A stretch of DNA of 49,062 bases from a virus (taxonomy: Duplodnaviria; Heunggongvirae; Uroviricota; Caudoviricetes). A program made the translations under genes and the position numbers. Below the pieces are notes generated by a model. That model was not told the origin of the DNA. It saw only the letters and a list, made by a program, of their open reading frames with translations, and made no database searches. The stretch is taken from positions 1 through 49,062 of the IMG/VR virus record IMGVR_UViG_2917891409_000001. The stretch is one strand, 5' to 3'. Each line of letters opens with the position of its first letter. Within the stretch, counting starts at the first letter, position 1. Below are positions 2,048 through 17,816 of this stretch, one piece after another.

Positions 2048-2290
2048 GTTGGCATTATAAAAAAGCATTGCTTATCAATTTGTTGCAACGAACAGGTCAC
2101 TATCAGTCAAAATAAAATCATTATTTGATTTCAATTTTGTCCCACTCCCTGCCTCTGTCATCACGATACTGTGATGCCATGGTGTCCGACTTATGCCCGA
2201 GAAGATGTTGAGCAAATTTATCGCTTATCTGCTTCTCATAGAGTCTTGCAGACAAACTGCGCAACTCGTGAAAGGTTGGCGGATCCCCTT
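2048..2290. promoter_or_regulatory. attL P' arm (Int arm-type and IHF site region)
   Basis: sequence GTTGGCATTATAAAAAAGCATTGCTTATCAATTTGTTGCAACGAACAGGTCACTATCAGTCAAAATAAAATCATTATTTGATTTC matches recalled lambda attP P' arm. Confidence 0.7.
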
Positions 2291-3191
2291 CGAAGGAAAG
2301 ACCTGATGCTTTTCGTGCGCGCATAAAATACCTTGATACTGTGCCGGATGAAAGCGGTTCACGACGAGTAGATGCAATTATGGTTTCTCCGCCAAGAATC
2401 TCTTTGCATTTATCAAGTGTTTCCTTCATTGATATCCCGAGAGCATCAACATGCAATGTTGTAGGGATGGCAATTTTTACGCCTGTTTTGCTTTGCTCGA
2501 CATAAAGATATCCATCTACGATATCAGACCACTTCATTTCGCATAAATCACCAACTCGCTGCCCGGTAACAACAGCCAGTTCCATTGCAAGTCTGAGCCA
2601 ACATGGTGATGATTCTGCTGCTTGATAAATTTTCAGGTATTCGTCAGCCGTAAGTCTTGATCTCCTTACCTCTGATTTTGCTGCGCGAGTGGCAGCGACC
2701 GGGTTTGTTGTTATATGGCCTTCAGCTATTGCCTCTCGGAATGCATCGCTCAGTGTTGATCTGATTAACTTGGCTGACGCCGCCTTGCCCTCGTCTATGT
2801 ATCCATTGAGCATTGCCGCAATTTCTTTTGTGGTGATGTCTTCAAGTGGAGCATCAGGCAGACCCCTCCTTATTGCTTTAATTTTGCTCATGTAATTTAT
2901 GAGAGTCTTCTGCTTGATTCCTCTGCTGGCGAGGATTTTTTCGTAGCGATCAAGCCATGAATGTAACGTAACAGAATTATCACTGTTGATTCTCGCTGTC
3001 AGAGGCTTGTGTTTGTGTCCTGAAAATAACTCAATGTTGGCCTGTATAGCTTCAGTGATTGCTATCCTCCTGTCTCGGCCTAATCCAAACTCTTTACCCG
3101 TCCTTGGATCCCTGTAGCAGTAATATCCATTGTTTCTTATATAAAGATTAGGGGGTAAATCCCGGCGCTCATGACTTCGCCTTCTTCCCAT
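2121..3191 (-). CDS. int: lambda-type integrase (tyrosine recombinase)
   Basis: 356 aa, MGRRRSHERRDLPPNLYIRNNGYYCYRDPRTGKEFGLG... as in lambda Int; overlaps xis. Confidence 0.95.
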   Translation of the reverse strand: MGRRRSHERRDLPPNLYIRNNGYYCYRDPRTGKEFGLGRDRRIAITEAIQANIELFSGHKHKPLTARINSDNSVTLHSWLDRYEKILASRGIKQKTLINYMSKIKAIRRGLPDAPLEDITTKEIAAMLNGYIDEGKAASAKLIRSTLSDAFREAIAEGHITTNPVAATRAAKSEVRRSRLTADEYLKIYQAAESSPCWLRLAMELAVVTGQRVGDLCEMKWSDIVDGYLYVEQSKTGVKIAIPTTLHVDALGISMKETLDKCKEILGGETIIASTRREPLSSGTVSRYFMRARKASGLSFEGDPPTFHELRSLSARLYEKQISDKFAQHLLGHKSDTMASQYRDDRGREWDKIEIK

Positions 3192-3387
3192 TTTTGATCC
3201 TCTTCAAAAGGCTACCTGTTACTGGTCGATTTAAGTCAACCTTTACCGCTGATTCGTGGAACAAATACTCTCTTCCGTCCTTAATCGGTGGTGGGAATAT
3301 CCTGCACTCGCGTACCCATCGACGAACTGTTTCAAGGCTTCTTGGGCGCCGCTGGCGTGCGTTCCACTCCTGAAGTGTCAAGTACAT
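3169..3387 (-). CDS. xis: excisionase
   Basis: 72 aa, MYLTLQEWNARQRRPRSLETVRRWVRE... as in lambda Xis. Confidence 0.9.
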   Translation of the reverse strand: MYLTLQEWNARQRRPRSLETVRRWVRECRIFPPPIKDGREYLFHESAVKVDLNRPVTGSLLKRIKNGKKAKS

Positions 3388-3426: not shown

Positions 3427-3594
3427 TCAGGCGGCTTGGTGTTCTTTCAGTTCTTCAATTCGAATATTGGTTACGTCTGCATGTGCTATCTGCGCCCATA
3501 TCATCCAGTGGTCATAGCAGTCATTGATGTTCTCTGCTTCGATAACTCTGTTGAATAGTTCTCCATTCCATTCACCTGTGACTCGGAAGTGCAT
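3427..3594 (-). CDS. small hypothetical protein (55 aa) downstream of xis
   Basis: own translation MHFRVTGEWNGELFNRVIEAENINDCYDHW...; below ORF-track length cutoff. Confidence 0.4.
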   Translation of the reverse strand: MHFRVTGEWNGELFNRVIEAENINDCYDHWMIWAQIAHADVTNIRIEELKEHQAA

Positions 3595-3677
3595 TTATCA
3601 TCTCCATAAAACAAAACTCGCCGTAGCGAGTTCAGATATAATTTCCACCAAAGGCAGTAGTTGCTTGATGCTAAGAA

Positions 3678-4106
3678 TTATTCAATATCTATTCCTGTAA
3701 TATCTTTTATCTTTTTCCTTGCAAAGCCTTTTGCTAGTGATTTTGAAACACTCATAAGTGTACTAATTCCCTCATCCTTAAAGTTTGTTTTTATAGCTTG
3801 CCAGACCTCCTTTTGACGTAAGTCAGCAATAAAGTCATGCCCTCTTGCTGTCAACCTCAGTGGTACTTCGATCCAACTATATCCAACACCTTCCCCTAAC
3901 GCTTTGGACATTATATGACCGAACCCAGGTTTTCCATCAACCCTGACTATTAATTCGTAGTCACATAATAATCGCATATGGAAAATAAAATTTTGGTCAT
4001 ATCTATTAAAGCCATTATCCTCTAGTTCACTAAGCATCGTGTCAGGGCCATGAGTTTTTTCGAATGCGATAAGTAGATCTTTTAGATATTGCTGGTCTAA
4101 TTTCAT
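3678..4106 (-). CDS. hypothetical protein (142 aa), accessory gene in pL operon
   Basis: ORF in AT-rich segment, no recognised motif. Confidence 0.5.
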   Translation of the reverse strand: MKLDQQYLKDLLIAFEKTHGPDTMLSELEDNGFNRYDQNFIFHMRLLCDYELIVRVDGKPGFGHIMSKALGEGVGYSWIEVPLRLTARGHDFIADLRQKEVWQAIKTNFKDEGISTLMSVSKSLAKGFARKKIKDITGIDIE

Positions 4107-4134
4107 TGCCGCCTCCGTGACATGTCACAGAGAT

Positions 4135-4473
4135 TTATATCATTAATTTTGTTTCGTGCCAGCCTTTGGTCACCCAGCATTGTGAGTCACCATTACACGG
4201 GCATGAATTAACAGGAACTCTCTCGCCGCACTTACCGCAACGTTTTCTGCTGATCGATTTTATACGCCAGCGCACACGTGCATCATCTTGGCGGCTCAGT
4301 AACGCGATGTACTCACCAAACTCGTAAGGCGCACGCCTGAAGCGACGCGTGGCACAGTTACGCTCCAGCATTTCAATTTCCTGAGCATCAAGTACAAGCT
4401 CCAGCTTACGCATACCGGATGATGCTTGCTTGGCCCTCTGATCGGCTTTGCGCTCTGCTGCTGATTTAGCCAT
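4135..4473 (-). CDS. hypothetical protein with C-terminal Cys-rich (zinc-ribbon-like) motif
   Basis: 112 aa; CGKCGERVPVNSCPCNGDSQC near C-terminus. Confidence 0.5.
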   Translation of the reverse strand: MAKSAAERKADQRAKQASSGMRKLELVLDAQEIEMLERNCATRRFRRAPYEFGEYIALLSRQDDARVRWRIKSISRKRCGKCGERVPVNSCPCNGDSQCWVTKGWHETKLMI

Positions 4474-4690
4474 TCTGCTTTTCCTGCATCAGGAGAAAGA
4501 CAATCATAGCGGCGCGGATGCTTCCGATATCTCTTTATGCGATAAGCACATACAAGCAGCGAACCATCAACTGGAGTGAGTGAGGAATCGACCACAAGCA
4601 ACGCCCCTTGCAATATGCCTTCGCGGTAATGGCTGTCACCCGCGGAACAATTTATCTGCTGGCTGCATGAAAAGCCAGCAATACAACTTT

Positions 4691-4722
4691 TGCTGACTTT
4701 CCACCGTTAACGCGACACAACC
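4691..4722. repeat. 32-bp perfect inverted repeat, left copy (partner at 5681-5712)
   Basis: TGCTGACTTTCCACCGTTAACGCGACACAACC; exact reverse complement at 5681-5712. Confidence 0.85.
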
Positions 4723-4809
4723 TTTGTTCCTGAGCTTCACGTTGCAGAGCCGATAATCTCCGTCTCTTTAAATTAAAAAGACGGAGACTATTAAAAACTC
4801 ATTAAAACA

Positions 4810-5454
4810 TCAGGAAACAACAGATTCCCCGTAAAACGCTACAGCCTGTGCAGACTGGGAGTCCATATCATCATGGAGATCTCTGGAGTATGGGAGGGAG
4901 TTGACTGTCGATATAAATATACTGTCATTTTCTAAAGTGAAAATTTCTGATTCGAGACTACCAATATCACCACGTACAGGATTAGTCCACCCACTAAACA
5001 GTAAAAATCCCCATTCCTGAAAAAGCCCGGAATTCACTTCACGTTTTACATCATGAAACATTTCTCCCGTCAGTTCATCGAAAGGGACATTATTGATATC
5101 GCGTCGTGCCGGGACAGTCCCTTTTTTATCCTCAATCCAAAACAATGCATCGTAAAATCTGTCCGACGTTGCGGTACGAGGTTTAAAGAAGCGATAAGGT
5201 TTAATTAAATAAGATGACACATTTTTCCCTGTGGCTTTATCCTTCGCAAAAATAACAAATGTTTTACCAATGCAACTTTCATCAATATCATTTGAAAATG
5301 ACACCACGCCGTCCTGATTTACAGTCAGCGAATTGTCTCCCGCATTGGTGACAACACTCCAGTCCAACGTATTATTATTGACAACATCATTGTCAACCAC
5401 CATCTGAAATGTCGCACCTGGAAATAATGTTTTCGGGAATGAACCATTAGCCAT
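4810..5454 (-). CDS. hypothetical protein, paralog A of a 3-member family (possible Ig-like N-terminal domain)
   Basis: 214 aa; shares SLFPGATF..VIDND.....G.V.F........GK.FVIFA.DK and C-terminal AQAVA.YGES with ORFs at 17817-18536 and 20319-20999. Confidence 0.6.
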   Translation of the reverse strand: MANGSFPKTLFPGATFQMVVDNDVVNNNTLDWSVVTNAGDNSLTVNQDGVVSFSNDIDESCIGKTFVIFAKDKATGKNVSSYLIKPYRFFKPRTATSDRFYDALFWIEDKKGTVPARRDINNVPFDELTGEMFHDVKREVNSGLFQEWGFLLFSGWTNPVRGDIGSLESEIFTLENDSIFISTVNSLPYSRDLHDDMDSQSAQAVAFYGESVVS

Positions 5455-5680
5455 GTCTTTTTTTTATATCGAACACATGGTGGCTCACTAGAACACCGGT
5501 AATTTTTGGCATAAAAAACTCCTTATTTGTTTAATTGAAATGCGATCAATAAATTCGATCACCAAAGAGATATTATTACTTTCACAAGAATAAATGTTGT
5601 TATTTGTTTATTATAAAACAATCATCACCCAGAAAAGAAAAAGATGCAGCTCGTTAACAAAAACCTTTGTGGCATATTAA

Positions 5681-5712
5681 GGTTGTGTCGCGTTAACGGT
5701 GGAAAGTCAGCA
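5681..5712. repeat. 32-bp perfect inverted repeat, right copy
   Basis: reverse complement of 4691-4722. Confidence 0.85.
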
Positions 5713-5926
5713 GATAAAATTGTTCTGTGGGTGACAATCCATCACCCTGAGGATGCTGATATTGCCCCTTGCGCATCATGTGGATTAATTCAACGCCGGC
5801 CAGTATCGTAGCCGTTCCATGAAATAGGTGTGCAAGTTCTCCGGTTGCTCACGGGCTACCTGTTCTGCAATTACCGGTATATTCATCCGCTCTTTGTAGG
5901 CAACGCCGCTGGCGGCCAGGTCAACG

Positions 5927-5962
5927 TTGAAGTGGTCAACCAAAACTGGCCACCGAGTTAGA
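5927..5962. mobile_element. solo IS3-family terminal inverted-repeat-like sequence (remnant)
   Basis: TGAAGTGGTCAACCAAAACTGGCCACCGAGTTAGAG closely resembles the IS end at 48695 (TGTAGTGGTCAAGTAATATTGGCCACGG); no transposase adjacent. Confidence 0.4.
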
Positions 5963-5968
5963 GTTTTT

Positions 5969-6451
5969 TCAGTTGTCGCGTATATCAGATGCAAGCGACT
6001 GTTCGGATTTTGAGTTACATTTCTGTGCAAACATCTCCACCCCCTGCGCCCGTACTTCAGCCAGGCATTTGCGGAACTCGGAAACGTACTGCTCAACGCT
6101 CATTCCCCAGCTAAGTGGGCATTCGTTGAATGTTTCGCCTTCGTGTTCTTCATCAGGTAGCTCTTTGGTAAAGAACTCACGCTCAATGGCGTGGAGTGTG
6201 TCAGCAAAACGGCGTAAATTACTCAAACCTACCGCAATGGAGAATTCAGGAGCATCACATCCGACGCCCATCTGCTGATATACGGTGGTTTTGAAGGCCT
6301 TAAGCCCAGCATTTTCAGCCGCCAGAGCCTCGCATTTAGCTTCAAGTTCACCGAATTTACGAACAAGATATTCAGCGTTTGTTTCGTTAACCTTTAAATC
6401 ACGTGGTATGCATTTACCTTTCAGAAAACCATCCATCTCAATTAGTGTCAT
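5969..6451 (-). CDS. hypothetical protein (160 aa)
   Basis: ORF in leftward operon; stop overlaps next gene start region. Confidence 0.5.
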
Positions 6452-8922: not shown

Positions 8923-9077
8923 ACAGCCCCCCGTTTATTATTTATCTCCTCAGCCAGCCGCTGTGCTTTCAGGGGATTTCGGATAACAGAAAGGCCGGGA
9001 AATACCCAGCCTCGCTTTGTAACGGAGTAGACGAAAGTGATTGCGCCTACCCGGATATTATCGTGAGGATGCTTCAT
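8919..9077 (-). CDS. small hypothetical protein (52 aa)
   Basis: own translation; ATGA overlaps with exo stop and methyltransferase start. Confidence 0.35.
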
Positions 9078-9754
9078 CGCCATTGCTCCCCAAATACAAA
9101 ACCAATTTCAGCCAGTGCCTCGTCCATTTTTTCGATGAACTCCGGCACCATCTCGTCAAAACTCGCCATGTACTTTTCATCCCGCTCAACCACGACATAA
9201 TGCAGTCCTTCACGCTTCATACGCGGGTCATAGTTGGCAAAGTACCAGGCATCTTTTCGTGTCACCCACATGCTGTACTGCACCTGGGCCATGTAAGCCG
9301 ACTTTATGGCCTCGAAACCACCGAGCCGGAACTTCATGAAATCCCGGGAGGTAAACGGGCATTTCAGCTCAAGGCCATTGCCGTCACTGCATAAACCATC
9401 GGGAGAGCAGGCGGTGCGCATACTTTCGTCGCGATAGATGATCGGGGATTCAGTAACATTCACGCCGGAAGTGAATTCAAACAGAGTTCTGGCGTCGTTC
9501 TCGTACTGTTTTCCCCATGCCAGCGCCTTAGCATTAACTTCCGGAGCCACACCGGTGCAAACCTCAGCCAGCAGGGTGTGGAAGTAGGACATTTTCATGT
9601 CAGGCCACTTCTTTCCTGAGCGGGGCTTTGCTATCATGTTGTGAACTTCTGAAGCGGTGATGACGCCGAGCCGTAATTTGTGCCATGCATCATCCCCCTG
9701 TTCGACAGCTCTCACGTCGATCCCGGTACGCTGCAGGATAATGTCCGGTGTCAT
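9074..9754 (-). CDS. exo: lambda exonuclease (Red alpha)
   Basis: 226 aa, [37 protein letters not shown]... as lambda Exo. Confidence 0.95.
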
Positions 9755-10536
9755 GCTGCCACCTTCTGCTCAGTGGCTTTCTGTTTCAGGAATCCAAGAG
9801 CTTTCACTGCTTCGGCCTGTGTCAGTTCTGACGATGCGCGAATGTCGCGGCGAAATATCTGGGAACAGAGCGGCAATAAGTCGTCATCCCATGTTTTATC
9901 CAGGGCGATCAGCAGAGTGTTAATCTCCTGCATGGTTTCATCGTTAACCGGAGTGATGTCGCGTTCCGGCTGACGTTCTGCAGTGTATGCAGTATTTTCA
10001 ACAATGCGCTCGGCTTCATCCTTGTCATAGATACCAGCAAATCCGAAGGCGAGACGGGCACACTGAATCATGGCTTTATGCCGTAACATCCGTTTGGGAT
10101 GCGACTGCCACGGTCCCGTGATTTCTCTGCCTTCGCGGGTTTTGAATGGTTCGCGGCGACATTCATCCATCCACTCGGTAACGCAGATCGGATGATTGCG
10201 GTCCTTGCGGTAAATCCGGCATGTGCAGGATTCATTGTCCTGCTCAAAGTCCATACCATCAAACTGCTGGTTTTCATTGATGATGCGGGACCAGCCATCA
10301 ACGCCCACCACCGGAACGATGCCGTTCTGCTTATCAGGGAAGGCGTAAATTTCTTTCGTCCACGGATTAAGGCCGTACTGGTTGGCAACGATCAGTAATG
10401 CGATGAACTGCGCATCGCTGGCATCACCTTTAAATGCCGTCTGGCGAAGAGTGGTGATCAGTTCCTGTGGGTCAACAGAATCCATGCCGACACGTTCAGC
10501 CAGCTTCCCTGCCAGCGTTGCGAGTGCAGTACTCAT
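9751..10536 (-). CDS. bet: Red beta single-strand annealing protein
   Basis: 261 aa, [48 protein letters not shown]... as lambda Bet. Confidence 0.95.
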
Positions 10537-11868: not shown

Positions 11869-12534
11869 TCAGTTTTTTATATCTTCTGAAGAAATTGACA
11901 CTTGTCTGGTACCATCACTTAAAGGTCCAATCCAAGTAAGATCAAAGTTAAGACTATATTTTTCGCACTCATTTATGATGTTTTTTAGGTTAGCTGTTGA
12001 TTGCGAACCAATTTCGGCAATTTTAGCCGTGAATGTTTCTTCATCAATGGATGAGAGTAGTGCAAAAATCTCCTTAACAGCATGACTGGATACTGTTTCG
12101 ATGAGCTCGCAAGAACCAGTAGAAAAAGTAACACCTAACTTCGTCGAACCTGGACGCAAGTCTGCCAATCTCATGTCTAATGATTTTTTAACATCAATCG
12201 GCACACGACTAGAATCTTTCCCAGATCCAAGTCGGTAAACTGCTTTCTGTACAAGGGATGCGAGATTACCTGAAATTACAGATAGAATATCTAACGGAAT
12301 AGACCCGAAATCGACCAAAACACCTTTTAATCTCAACTCCATGAAATCACGTAAAGGATGTTGGTTATCGATTGCACGTTGTCTCTCTCGGAGATCGCTC
12401 AGATGGGAGTCAAGTGATCTAAATATAATGTCATCAGCAAATGATCTCCCCTTATTTTGAGCAAGCAGATCCACATCGCGTTGAATGAACGCAATTCGCT
12501 CCTTGAGGGAGTTGAATGTTTTTTCTTCGCTCAT
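11869..12534 (-). CDS. hypothetical protein (221 aa), partner of nucleotidyltransferase gene
   Basis: start overlaps stop of upstream gene by 4 bp; contains RAIDNQH (Rx5H, HEPN-like spacing, weak). Confidence 0.55.
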   Translation of the reverse strand: MSEEKTFNSLKERIAFIQRDVDLLAQNKGRSFADDIIFRSLDSHLSDLRERQRAIDNQHPLRDFMELRLKGVLVDFGSIPLDILSVISGNLASLVQKAVYRLGSGKDSSRVPIDVKKSLDMRLADLRPGSTKLGVTFSTGSCELIETVSSHAVKEIFALLSSIDEETFTAKIAEIGSQSTANLKNIINECEKYSLNFDLTWIGPLSDGTRQVSISSEDIKN

Positions 12535-13004
12535 AACATTACCCTCACGAGGCCTTTAGGATTCTCCTTCCGATCAAAACCAAACCACCCTCTCCAGTAA
12601 CTTCGCCTTTCACTATAATCGATTTCTGGATGATTTTCAGGCAGCAAAAGAACGTCAATGCTGTAGTTTTCTTTAATAAAATCTCTATTTAACAATGAGC
12701 TAACCAATGGCATCAGCGTGTTTGGCAAAGAGTTTAGGGCCAAATAATCGACGACCACGAGTATATCTATATCATCAGGTTCAGGTTTCTCTGTAGTGAA
12801 TGAACCATCGATCCACACTTCAGAAAAACATAGACACTGCTGATTAACAAGTTTAAATTGCTCAATAAGCTGTATAAAATTACAGTATAGCATACTTCTT
12901 CTAACGGATTTTGGGAAGGTGTCGACACAAAGAGACTTGATGCCATCACTATCCATATCATGAAATCCTGCTGTAAGAAGAGGTGGGAAGCTAGGCTTTT
13001 CCAT
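12531..13004 (-). CDS. nucleotidyltransferase-fold protein (pol-beta superfamily, minimal nucleotidyltransferase-like)
   Basis: 157 aa; motif DGSFTTEKPEPDDIDILVVVD fits G[SG]x9-13DxD, later acidic residue in SIDVLLL; sits where lambda has rexA. Confidence 0.6.
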   Translation of the reverse strand: MEKPSFPPLLTAGFHDMDSDGIKSLCVDTFPKSVRRSMLYCNFIQLIEQFKLVNQQCLCFSEVWIDGSFTTEKPEPDDIDILVVVDYLALNSLPNTLMPLVSSLLNRDFIKENYSIDVLLLPENHPEIDYSERRSYWRGWFGFDRKENPKGLVRVML

Positions 13005-13085: not shown

Positions 13086-13613
13086 TTAACCATGCTTCCT
13101 GTACGTCTGCGGCATGCTCCCAATAACCTTACCGAAGATGAACACCCGGTTCATCTCGTCTTTCTCGATCGGGTCCCACGGTGAGTAGCTCTTGTTATCA
13201 GAGATAACCAGTAGCTTATCCTTCATCATTTGCAGGCGCTTTACATGGGCGGTGTCGTCATACAGAAACGCATAGATACCATCACCGTCGAAAGATTTAA
13301 CCGTGATATCAACGAACAGCAGATCACCTGGTTCGATCGTTCCTGACATGCTGTCACCACGCACGTTAATGATGCGGATATTTTCCGCCTTCCTGCCATC
13401 GAACATGTGACGAGCATCGTCAAACGAGTACTCAACCGAGCGTAGAACTTCTACAAACTCACGGTTGATTACACCCGGCCCAGCACTGACTTCTATATCA
13501 AGAACGTCAATCTTGAAGTATTTGGAATGGTTGACAGCAGGCTTCCCTGATTGTTGACCGTCATTTCTCATCGGGCCTATGCCTGATGAGAGCCACTCTG
13601 TTCGAACACCCAA
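13086..13613 (-). CDS. cI: CI-like repressor, C-terminal S24 peptidase (LexA-like autocleavage) domain fragment
   Basis: GDSM serine motif and downstream Lys; upstream frame is open and joins the HTH fragment if one T of the T6 run at 13634-13639 is removed. Confidence 0.7.
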   Translation of the reverse strand: MGVRTEWLSSGIGPMRNDGQQSGKPAVNHSKYFKIDVLDIEVSAGPGVINREFVEVLRSVEYSFDDARHMFDGRKAENIRIINVRGDSMSGTIEPGDLLFVDITVKSFDGDGIYAFLYDDTAHVKRLQMMKDKLLVISDNKSYSPWDPIEKDEMNRVFIFGKVIGSMPQTYRKHG

Positions 13614-16697: not shown

Positions 16698-16972
16698 GGT
16701 TGACGATAACTAATATCTGGCGCTATATTCTGTGTGTTGCCGCAAAATCGGCACACGGGATTGGCGTCCCGGATAAGGTAATCGCGACTACTACACGCCG
16801 CGAGCGTGTTTTTTATTGTCGTAAGCATACGCACATCTGAATTATGGTGGGGCGTGTAGGGCCGACTTCGGTCGGGCCGGTTGATTACCCCGGTTACGCC
16901 AACCCTACATGTCTCACCACCAAACTGATTGGCGTCAGCGGTGGTGGTTAACTTGATTTATAGGTAATCATC

Positions 16973-17578
16973 ATGAGCACACAACTAGTCTTTCATCAAA
17001 CAAAATTCCATCCTGTTAAACACAACAACAGTATCTGGCTTACTGCCGTTGAGATTGCTCAAGCTCTCGGATATAAAAAATCTGATGCCGTAACTCAGAT
17101 CTACGATCGAAATTCCGATGAATTTAGGGCAGATATGACTGAGACCCTCAATTTGAGTGTCTCAGGGAACTACCAGAAAACAATACGCATTTTCTCCCTC
17201 CGTGGTGCCCATTTGATCGCTATGTTCGCCCGCACTCCTGTAGCCAAAGAATTCCGCCGCTGGGTTCTGGATATTCTCGATCGAGAAGTTCAACAATCCC
17301 CAATCACAAAACAATTCACTGATAACGAACTTTGCACACTCGCCTGGTTATGGCGAGCAGGGGATGTGATGTTAACCGCCTGCCAGAATGTTACTCCACT
17401 TCTTCAGGTTGCGGAGCATCGCGAAGCCGGTCGCTTTACTTCTATTGAGCAAGAATATCCCCAGATACTACATAAGGCGCGCGAAATCCTTGCCAGAGAA
17501 ACGGCACATGTAAGATTCCAGCCGTGGCAGGATGATAAGTGGAGCCGAGTATTGCCGCATTTGCGTTCTGAGCAGTAG
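16973..17578 (+). CDS. phage antirepressor-like protein (Bro-N/KilA-N-type N-terminus)
   Basis: 201 aa; HNNSIWLTAVEIAQALGY motif. Confidence 0.6.
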   Translation: MSTQLVFHQTKFHPVKHNNSIWLTAVEIAQALGYKKSDAVTQIYDRNSDEFRADMTETLNLSVSGNYQKTIRIFSLRGAHLIAMFARTPVAKEFRRWVLDILDREVQQSPITKQFTDNELCTLAWLWRAGDVMLTACQNVTPLLQVAEHREAGRFTSIEQEYPQILHKAREILARETAHVRFQPWQDDKWSRVLPHLRSEQ

Positions 17579-17816
17579 CAATAAAGTTTCCGGTGAGAAA
17601 TGTCACCAGCATTTTGTTATGAAACGGGTATTGGCGGTATATTGGGGGCGGGGCTTTAGTTATTAGGTGTCGAGAATTAATTGTTTGTAGCAATATAAAA
17701 AGGAGCGCTTAAGTTCGTTTATTTTTTAAGCTTCATATACATAGTGGATAAAAATGAGAACCACCCGCTGAACGGGTGGTTTTGCGCAAGTTAAATTTTA
17801 TAATTTCAGTGAATCT

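What the first reader, a model, noticed from the sequence alone, without database searches (positions are those of the whole stretch)
4691..5712. Paralog A sits in a ~1 kb segment bounded by perfect 32-bp inverted repeats
TGCTGACTTTCCACCGTTAACGCGACACAACC at 4691-4722 is exactly reverse-complemented at 5681-5712, enclosing the gene and its upstream region. Perfect long inverted repeats around a single gene suggest an invertible or mobile cassette (recombinase-driven inversion or a MITE-like unit), although no recombinase is adjacent. A short hairpin (4759-4790) lies just downstream of the gene.
Basis: seen in the sequence. Interest (0 to 1): 0.55.

Follow-up and report, generated by a model that had tools for sequence, protein, structure and literature searches.

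The report
Insertion-sequence stubs bracket a flippable prophage gene
The perfect inverted repeats are the leftover tips of two copies of an IS6-family insertion sequence that face each other across a foreign 1-kb gene cassette in a lambda-like prophage; related genomes carry the cassette in both orientations, so it has flipped at least once, most likely by ordinary homologous recombination and not by a dedicated switch.

Summary
The repeat is real. Arms 4691-4724 and 5679-5712 are 34 nt and 100% complementary, with 0 expected by chance. Weaker pairing extends out to 4634 and 5736.

Each arm is the 3' end plus right terminal inverted repeat (IRR) of an IS6-family insertion sequence (ISEas1-like, 80-89% DNA identity). 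The right stub still encodes the last 39 residues of the transposase (E 1.6e-16). Both IS tips (GGTTGTGTCGCG...) point inward at a 958-bp, low-GC cassette. The outer parts of both IS copies are deleted, and the stubs are fused to a 5'-truncated humD and a 3'-truncated theta/HolE-like gene.

The cassette carries one gene, a signal-less homologue of the invasin D4-D5 adhesive tip, and a strong hairpin.

Among 32 related loci with at least one flank, 13 have the window's orientation and 19 the opposite one. All share the same unique flank junctions, so the flip came after the IS truncations. One inversion explains the cassette tree, so rapid switching is not shown.

No invertase is present. The prophage has Red-like exo/bet.

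It is not a MITE, a mobile cassette or a functional IS6 transposon. This is an ordinary kind of element, but a clean example.

The gene also has an A7/A8 tract that is frameshifted in this window.

The parts
4452..4638 (-). 5'-truncated humD (UmuD-like S24 peptidase) remnant; this is the left phage flank
   Evidence: NCBIfam HumD matches positions 43-99 of 129 (E 4.6e-12). It aligns with an E. coli S24 pseudogene up to 4638, and the sequences diverge after that. The junction with the IS lies at the microhomology ATGG(C)TGTCA.
4634..4722 (+). Left IS6-family stub: the last ~89 nt of the IS (end of the transposase ORF, a small hairpin, the IRR), with the tip at 4722 touching the cassette
   Evidence: blastn: nt 722-811 of an ISEas1-like IS match 4634-4722 at 80%. 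Multiple alignment with three intact IS6-family 3' ends. E. coli plasmid hits are annotated as IS6 family.
4691..4724 (.). Left arm of the perfect 34-nt inverted repeat (32 nt of IS tip plus TT)
4723..5680 (-). Passenger cassette, 958 bp. Its GC content dips to 0.30-0.44, against about 0.48-0.52 in the flanks
   Evidence: Composition profile. It lies between the two IS tips. Its gene plus part of the upstream region is 79% identical to non-prophage loci L007 and L008, which have no IS arms.
4753..4791 (-). Hairpin 18 nt downstream of the stop codon; probable terminator, with only a weak U-tract (UUAU)
   Evidence: z = -5.9. The consensus terminator scan did not call it.
4810..5454 (-). Gene A as it reads in this window: 214 aa, homologous to the invasin D4(-D5) tip, no signal peptide
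   Evidence: Pfam Invasin_D4 E 3.5e-8. PDB 1cwv invasin residues 303-365, E 6.2e-7. A profile search hits the C-termini of inverse autotransporters.
5449..5511 (-). Original first 19 codons of gene A (MPKITGVLVSHHVFDIKK...), now in another frame and ending at a TAA that overlaps the restart ATG
   Evidence: Homologues are 232-233 aa and start MPKITGVLV.
5458..5465 (-). A8 homopolymer tract. A7 gives the intact 233-aa protein; A8, as here, gives a frameshift
   Evidence: A8 in 11 of the loci examined, A7 in 22.
5679..5712 (.). Right arm of the perfect 34-nt inverted repeat
5681..5824 (-). Right IS6-family stub: IS nt ~634-811 with a 34-nt internal deletion (junction within 5705-5712, between 8-nt direct repeats TGCTGACT). 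The tip at 5681 touches the cassette
   Evidence: tblastn: transposase aa 191-229 match 5824-5708, 74% identity, E 1.6e-16; blastn 83%. The undeleted form is seen in L001, L014, L021, L011+L016 and L024.
5785..5943 (-). 3'-truncated theta/HolE-like gene whose reading frame runs into the right IS stub; this is the right phage flank
   Evidence: Pfam DNA_pol3_theta positions 13-58 of 70, E 5.3e-22. Called as a 52-aa gene in L022.

Best explanation
The arms are the right-hand ends (end of the transposase gene plus IRR) of two copies of one IS6-family insertion sequence. The copies sit in inverted orientation with their tips against a 958-bp passenger cassette. The structure is therefore the decayed core of an IS-bracketed segment inside the early-left region of a lambda-like prophage.

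Shown:
- Homology of both arms to IS6-family 3' ends.
- Inward direction of both tips.
- Loss of both outer IS parts. The stubs are fused to humD' on the left and to a theta-like gene on the right.
- The same two fusion junctions in all relatives.
- Two orientations of the cassette between those junctions.
- Patchwork arms, including a 34-nt deletion that is present in neither, one or both arms.

Inferred:
1. The inverted pair arose either by intramolecular replicative IS6 transposition 'in trans', which makes an inverted second copy and flips the DNA between, or by capture of a fragment from an IS-rich replicon.
2. After both IS copies were truncated, the cassette flipped by homologous recombination and gene conversion between the remaining 56-89-nt arms. 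Host RecA or the prophage's own Red-like exo/bet could do this.
3. The flip is rare and is not known to have a regulatory role.

The stubs cannot transpose. The cargo is a self-contained gene with a terminator-like hairpin: a signal-less invasin-tip homologue, frameshifted here at an A8 tract.
For: **IS identity**
- the only E. coli matches to the arm lie at the ends of annotated IS6-family elements.
- the intact ISEas1-like element has IRs GGTTCTGTCGCATTAA.
- nt 722-811 match 4634-4722; nt 649-750 and 790-811 match 5809-5681; the transposase C-terminus matches with E 1.6e-16; there is no other transposase match in the window.
- 158 plasmids match, all listed hits are annotated IS6 family, best 89%.
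- the alignment ends at the shared tip ...CGTTAAYGCGACASAACC.
- PMC7986276: IS6 tips begin GG and have a cTGTt motif; inverted copies arise by the in-trans intramolecular reaction.

**Truncation junctions**.

**Both orientations, same junctions**
-.
- The inverted set includes the complete chromosome CP056159.1 (L042) and a 4.67-Mb ENA metagenome-assembly contig (L034).

**Arm patchwork**: the main inverted group has both arms identical over 56 nt.

**Recombinases**
- No invertase.
- Red-like exo and a RecT-family bet at 9074-10536.
Against: - No read-level data were available, so ongoing inversion in one culture is untested.
- Cassette haplotypes need only one inversion, so the flip could be a single historical accident.
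- The left-flank arm in inverted loci carries right-arm-type bases right up to the outermost TGTCACCC. That needs either a crossover in about 8-13 nt of homology or a later gene conversion. The exact path is not resolved.
- How the inverted IS pair first formed cannot be tested, because the outer ends and their 8-bp target duplications are gone.
- No consensus promoter was found upstream of the gene.
Confidence: 0.8

Rival explanations
1. A programmed invertible switch like Hin/Gin/Cin/Pin or fimS: a site-specific recombinase crosses over inside the repeats to flip the gene.
For: - Both orientations occur in nature.
- The segment size (~1 kb) and the 34-nt repeats resemble the Mu G segment and the Salmonella H segment (own knowledge).
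- The element is phage-borne.
Against: - The arms are IS6 ends, not hix/gix-like sites.
- No serine invertase is in the 49-kb window. The only tyrosine recombinase is a lambda-type Int with an arm-binding domain.
- The cassette has its own terminator-like hairpin and no split gene or promoter at the boundary, so a flip has no obvious read-out.
- Orientation is fixed within each lineage.
- The arms vary by deletion and patchwork, which a site-specific system would not tolerate well.
Confidence: 0.04
2. A non-autonomous mobile cassette (MITE or mobile insertion cassette) that an IS6 transposase supplied in trans can move.
For: - The arms contain a complete IS6-type terminal repeat.
- IS6-family MITEs exist (PMC7986276).
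Against: - Both tips face inward, so the cassette lies outside both IS copies. A MITE or MIC has its tips at the outer edges.
- Both arms are right ends, and there is no flanking 8-bp duplication.
- All 33 loci show the unit between the same humD' and theta' junctions.
- The 26-mer occurs in only 2 of the representative genomes of 185,579 species. The 22-mer occurs in 0 metagenome contigs and 6 viral genome bins, all at this locus.
Confidence: 0.04
3. A functional IS6 pseudo-compound transposon or a Tn5/Tn10-like compound transposon carrying gene A.
For: A passenger gene bracketed by two copies of one IS is the layout of a compound transposon.
Against: - Functional IS6 pseudo-compound transposons have directly repeated IS copies (PMC7986276). 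These copies are inverted.
- Both IS copies have lost more than 630 nt, including the transposase start and the outer ends.
- No intact IS6 transposase is in the window.
Confidence: 0.05
4. The orientation difference is an assembly artefact caused by the repeat.
For: Short-read graph contigs break at the arms: L026 and L009 end inside them.
Against: - The inverted state appears in 19 loci from independent assemblies, including a complete chromosome and a 4.67-Mb ENA metagenome-assembly contig.
- The window state appears in 13 loci.
- In the window-type loci the arms are perfect over only 34 nt and differ outside that. Only the main inverted group has arms identical over 56 nt.
- Each state has its own linked SNPs in the cassette.
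Confidence: 0.02

Closest known systems
IS26/IS6-family inverted pairs made by intramolecular replicative transposition in trans (He et al. 2015, PMC4471558; Varani et al. 2021, PMC7986276)
   Same: Two copies of one IS6-family element sit in inverted orientation around a short DNA segment, with like ends facing the segment. Tip sequence and layout are IS6-type.
   Different: Both copies are reduced here to 89-nt and 144-nt stubs, so no transposase and no outer ends remain. The diagnostic inverted 8-bp target duplications cannot be checked. The host is a lambdoid prophage rather than a resistance plasmid, and the cargo is not a resistance gene.
Compound transposons with inverted IS (Tn5, Tn10)
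   Same: Inverted IS copies bracket a passenger gene, with the inside ends against the cargo.
   Different: The IS family has a different mechanism (cointegrate-forming IS6). The outer ends are deleted, so the structure cannot move.
Phage invertible segments: Mu G (Gin), P1 C (Cin), e14 P (Pin), Salmonella H (Hin)
   Same: A phage- or prophage-borne segment bounded by short inverted repeats and found in two orientations.
   Different: Those have an adjacent serine invertase, conserved crossover sites and an enhancer, and inversion swaps gene 3' ends or a promoter. None of these is present here.
Lambdoid phage 'morons' (extra, self-contained genes between conserved phage genes)
   Same: A single foreign gene of deviant GC content with a terminator-like hairpin, in the accessory early-left region.
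   Different: It is bracketed by IS stubs and replaces parts of two neighbouring genes instead of sitting cleanly between them. No promoter was identified.
Invasin/intimin C-terminal receptor-binding module (D4-D5 of Yersinia invasin, PDB 1cwv)
   Same: Sequence homology of the cargo protein to D4 and, by profile, to the following C-terminal region of inverse autotransporters.
   Different: It is a stand-alone 233-aa protein without signal peptide, LysM, beta-barrel or Ig-repeat stalk. The fold of its C-terminal half is not established (pLDDT below 50).

Membership tests
IS6-family insertion sequence (as remnant) | 15-20 bp terminal inverted repeat with GG at the tip and a cTGTt motif | tested here: met
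   The tips read GGTTGTGTCGCGTTAACGG, against GGTTCTGTCGCATTAACGG in the ISEas1-like IRR. The motif description comes from PMC7986276.
IS6-family insertion sequence (as remnant) | IS6-type DDE transposase gene ending ~50 nt before the IRR | tested here: inconclusive
   Only the last 39 codons survive in the right stub (74% identity, E 1.6e-16) and about 7-10 codons in the left stub. Homology is clear, but the gene is not intact.
IS6-family insertion sequence (as remnant) | About 800 bp long with both IRL and IRR, flanked by an 8-bp direct repeat | tested here: not met
   The stubs are 89 and 144 nt, IRL is absent on both sides, and the outer flanks are deleted. These are remnants, not elements.
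IS6 pseudo-compound transposon | Flanking IS copies in direct orientation | tested here: not met
   The copies are inverted. The requirement is stated in PMC7986276.
MITE / mobile insertion cassette | IS-type terminal repeats at the outer edges of the unit, target-site duplication, several genomic copies | tested here: not met
   The tips face inward. All 33 loci share a single locus context.
Site-specific DNA invertase switch (Hin/Gin/Cin/Pin) | Serine invertase gene next to the segment | tested here: not met
   tblastn with a Hin sequence recalled from memory gives no hit with E below 0.6 in the window. The Pfam scans were partial, covering 23 of the window's ORFs, and showed only Int, exo and bet as recombination enzymes.
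Site-specific DNA invertase switch (Hin/Gin/Cin/Pin) | Both orientations present within one clonal population | not testable with these tools
   Only assemblies were available. Orientation is fixed within each lineage.
Phage moron | Own promoter and terminator, deviant base composition | tested here: inconclusive
   The cassette's GC content dips to 0.30-0.44, against ~0.50 in the flanks. There is a strong hairpin after the stop codon, but no consensus promoter upstream.
Invasin/intimin tip module | Invasin_D4 Ig-like domain followed by the C-terminal lectin-like domain | tested here: inconclusive
   D4 is met. The profile aligns through position ~175-200 to adhesin C-termini. The AlphaFold model of residues 107-233 has pLDDT below 50.

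The most novel reading that the evidence does not exclude
The IS stubs may have been co-opted as a recombination-driven flip-flop, using RecA or the prophage's Red system. Together with the slippery A7/A8 tract, this would give two-layer on/off variation of a prophage-borne, signal-less invasin-tip protein. Relatives of this protein are partners of Scabin-like ADP-ribosyltransferase toxins, so it could be a toxin adaptor, a receptor-binding subunit or an immunity factor released or used at lysis.
Probability: 0.06. Interest if true: 0.6.

Novelty: new member of a known kind. Interest (0 to 1): 0.3.

Why it matters
The result turns an apparent 'mystery switch' into a readable history:
1. IS6 activity.
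2. Truncation of both IS copies.
3. Recombination between the stubs.

It shows that arms as short as 56-89 nt have been enough to flip a gene inside a prophage. It also warns that perfect repeats around a gene can be inward-facing IS tips rather than recombinase sites or MITE ends.

The cargo is a side lead. It belongs to a small family seen almost only in Escherichia cryptic clades and E. marmotae. Its members are free-standing invasin-tip homologues. This prophage carries three copies, one with a hypermutable tract, and relatives elsewhere sit next to an ADP-ribosyltransferase.

Tried and rejected
- **Rfam.** A scan of 4400-6000 at E up to 1 found nothing, so the arms are not a known RNA.
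- **Phage database.** A distant blastn of 4600-5800 found no match. Among 5,426 complete E. coli genomes only the flanks match, at 19% coverage or less.
- **Metagenome scan** with the 22-mer gave 0 hits.
- **Empty site.** I looked for a site where humD and the theta-like gene are adjacent. E. coli relatives share only one flank at a time, so none was found.
- **IS6 traces near the paralogues.** I checked paralogues B and C and the 71%-identical homologues L007 and L008. Only 12-nt chance matches turned up.
- **Structure.** AlphaFold on a 9-sequence alignment gave mean pLDDT 52, with residues 107-233 below 50. I ran no fold search because the matches would be meaningless.
- **Promoter.** The consensus scan found no minus-strand site upstream of the gene, and no hybrid promoter from the IS tip.
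- **Hix-like site.** I considered a hix-like half-site at 5655-5680 (ACAAAAACCTTTGTGG). I dropped it because no invertase is present and the sequence lies inside the cassette, not at a boundary.
- **Literature.** Searches found nothing on this cassette or protein.

Full report
**1. The observation**

The repeat finder reports arms 4691-4724 and 5679-5712. They are 34 nt long, 100% complementary and 954 nt apart. A search allowing three mismatches finds only these two copies in the window, and none appears in 100 shuffles.

Weaker pairing continues outward: 4634-4653 pairs with 5717-5736, and 4651-4664 with 5705-5718. The segment holds one minus-strand ORF (4810-5454) and an AT-rich upstream region. 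GC content inside the segment dips to 0.30-0.44, against about 0.50 outside.

It has an 18-bp stem, and the region folds with z = -5.9 against shuffles.

**2. Setting**

The window is a lambda-like prophage inserted next to a pectinesterase (ybhC-like) gene. Its recognisable genes are:
- Int, 2121-3191
- Xis, 3169-3387
- Red-like exo, 9074-9754, and a RecT-family bet, 9751-10536
- a repressor, replication, lysis and tail genes

About 40% of the first 25 kb matches Escherichia phages such as PhiR30_1 at 95-97% identity. Three test segments spanning 4300-6060 are 100% identical to contig PDIH01000072 of GCA_004745335.1, an unclassified Escherichia.

The cassette is absent from 50,697 phage records. 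It is also absent from 5,426 complete E. coli genomes, where only the flanks match.

**3. What the arms are**

The only E. coli matches to the arm region lie on plasmids, at the right-hand ends of annotated IS6-family elements. An intact ISEas1-like copy (L004:2280-3090) has terminal repeats GGTTCTGTCGCATTAA, and its transposase gene ends about 50 nt before the right tip.

Matches of that IS to the window:

| IS region | Window coordinates | Identity |
|---|---|---|
| nt 722-811 | 4634-4722 | 80% |
| nt 649-750 | 5809-5708 | 83% |
| nt 790-811 | 5702-5681 | not compared further |
| transposase aa 191-229 | 5824-5708 | 74%, E 1.6e-16 |

In the plasmid collection, 158 records match the right stub, and all the listed hits are annotated IS6 family. 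The best is 89% identical, from Klebsiella michiganensis.

A multiple alignment with three intact IS6 3' ends shows that both window arms end at the common tip ...CGTTAACGCGACACAACC. After the shared 16-nt repeat, the arms follow the right-end sequence of the IS and not the left-end sequence.

Both arms are therefore right ends, and both tips point inward. The cassette lies outside both IS copies, as in the centre of a compound structure. The extra TT/AA is ordinary cassette sequence.

**4. The junctions**

- **Left.** The phage sequence up to 4638 is a humD (UmuD-like) gene lacking its first ~42 codons. It joins the IS at a short microhomology, ATGG(C)TGTCA.
- **Right.** A theta/HolE-like ORF (5785-5943) lacks its last ~12 profile positions and reads into the IS stub near 5824.
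- **Within the right stub.** There is a 34-nt deletion between two 8-nt direct repeats, TGCTGACT. The undeleted form survives in L001, L014, L021, L011+L016 and L024.

No other IS6 transposase sequence exists in the window. The stubs cannot transpose.

**5. Relatives and orientation**

Exact-word scans gave the following:

| Collection | Word | Result |
|---|---|---|
| 185,579 species representatives | 26-mer | 2 loci |
| Viral contigs | 22-mer | 7 stretches from 6 viral genome bins |
| Metagenome contigs | 22-mer | none |

Look-ups of the encoded protein added 23 more loci. For each locus I blasted the left flank, the cassette and the right flank separately and read the arm junctions directly.

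- **Window orientation, 13 loci:** L001 (right flank only), L002, L011+L016, L013-L015, L017 and L021-L025.
- **Inverted, 19 loci:** L009, L012 and L027-L043. These are mostly E. marmotae and allied strains, in a prophage remnant next to fliE. They include the complete chromosome CP056159.1 and a 4.67-Mb ENA metagenome-assembly contig.
- **Not scorable:** L026 has no flanks.

In the inverted loci the humD' junction is attached to the promoter side of the cassette, and the long IS stub with theta' is attached to the terminator side. The junction sequences themselves are the same as in the window.

Those junctions are unique deletion events. They must predate the split between the two orientations, so the flip happened after both IS copies were already dead. 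That rules out the IS6 transposase of these copies as the agent of the flip. It leaves recombination between the remaining arms.

**6. How often it flipped**

There are 16 cassette haplotypes. The window-orientation set is a tight group, with 13 differences or fewer. The main inverted set lies about 20 differences away. L012 is inverted but closer to the window group, and L009 is distant from everything. One inversion on one branch explains this pattern, so rapid or programmed switching is not shown.

The arms are nevertheless a patchwork:

| Loci | Arm state |
|---|---|
| Main inverted group | Both arms identical over 56 nt; both carry the 34-nt deletion |
| Window type | The deletion is in one arm only |
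| L014 type | The deletion is in neither arm |
| L012 | A deleted arm on the humD' side and an undeleted right-type arm on the theta' side |

This pattern is what repeated exchange or gene conversion between inverted repeats produces. The exact sequence of events cannot be reconstructed.

**7. Mechanism**

Shown:
- The arms are IS6 stubs.
- The tips face inward.
- The junctions are shared by all relatives.
- Two orientations exist.
- There is no invertase. Int is a lambda-type enzyme with an arm-binding domain.

Inferred from established knowledge:
- Inverted IS6 copies typically arise when the element transposes replicatively within its own molecule 'in trans'. That reaction also inverts the DNA between the copies. 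Functional IS6 pseudo-compound transposons need direct repeats (PMC7986276).
- Homology of about 25-50 bp or more is enough for RecA- or Red-mediated exchange (own knowledge). The prophage encodes exo and bet.

The alternative origin is capture of an IS-cassette-IS fragment by illegitimate recombination at the two microhomology junctions. It is equally compatible with the data.

**8. The cargo**

Homologues are 232-233 aa and begin MPKITGVLV. In the window an A8 tract (5458-5465) replaces A7. This puts the first 19 codons out of frame. The short leader ORF stops at a TAA that overlaps the ATG at 5454, so re-initiation is conceivable.

A8 occurs in 11 of the loci examined and A7 in 22. The tract length has changed at least twice within the tight window-type group.

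The protein matches the following:
- Pfam Invasin_D4 (E 3.5e-8)
- invasin 1cwv residues 303-365 (E 6.2e-7)
- by profile, the last 150-180 residues of inverse autotransporters that carry LysM, IAT_beta and Big_1 domains

It has none of those upstream parts and no signal peptide. The AlphaFold model is usable only for the N-terminal Ig-like half.

Homologues 71% identical, in Escherichia sp. E3659 and in a Logan assembly, lie just upstream of a 422-424-aa Scabin-like ADP-ribosyltransferase. They have no IS arms.

Two further paralogues in the window sit in a 2.46-kb tandem duplication, and one of them is frameshifted.

**9. Verdict**

But it is not a recombinase switch and not a MITE-like unit. 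It is a decayed IS6-bracketed passenger gene, which is a known kind of structure. The documentation here is unusually clear, and the cargo is modestly interesting.

Noticed in passing
window 5458-5465 (minus strand A8), leader ORF 5449-5511: A homopolymer tract in codons 17-19 of gene A. A8 frameshifts the gene here and in 10 related loci. A7 keeps the 233-aa protein in 22 loci, including every inverted locus. The tract length changed at least twice among near-identical cassettes. The leader stop overlaps the restart ATG (ATGGCTAA).
   Followed up: partly
window 16698-19160 and 19168-21630: A 2.46-kb tandem direct duplication (86-97% identity). Each unit holds a Bro-N/P22_AR_C antirepressor-like gene on the plus strand and an invasin-D4 paralogue on the minus strand. 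Paralogue B (17817-18581) has a C-terminal frameshift. Paralogue C (20319-21044) is intact.
   Followed up: partly
L007:5001-7034 (Escherichia sp. E3659) and L008:299-2335: 71%-identical homologues of gene A lie directly upstream of a 422-424-aa protein with a Scabin-like ADP-ribosyltransferase domain, next to a tyrosine integrase. This suggests the family works with a toxin.
   Followed up: no
window 48703-49062 (minus); L027-L043 around 3545-4719: An IS3-family transposase fragment (rve domains) lies at the window's end. Separately, the inverted-type loci carry an IS3-family element inserted beside the theta-like gene.
   Followed up: no
window 11869-13004 (minus): A DUF6932 gene (12531-13004) and an unassigned 221-aa ORF (11869-12534) sit beside the S24-type repressor (13086-13613), in the position where lambdoid phages often carry exclusion or defence genes.
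   Followed up: no
L001:1-1761 (Escherichia whittamii) and L028:2200-2335: Further decay states. In E. whittamii the cassette is cut at window position 5142 and the left arm is gone. In L028 the promoter-side arm is reduced to its last 11 nt.
   Followed up: partly
window 4452-4638 and 5785-5943: Remnants of humD (UmuD-like) and of a theta/HolE-like gene flank the structure in a lambdoid early-left region. Both gene types are better known from P1-like phage-plasmids. E. coli matches to the left flank include 220 plasmid places.
   Followed up: no
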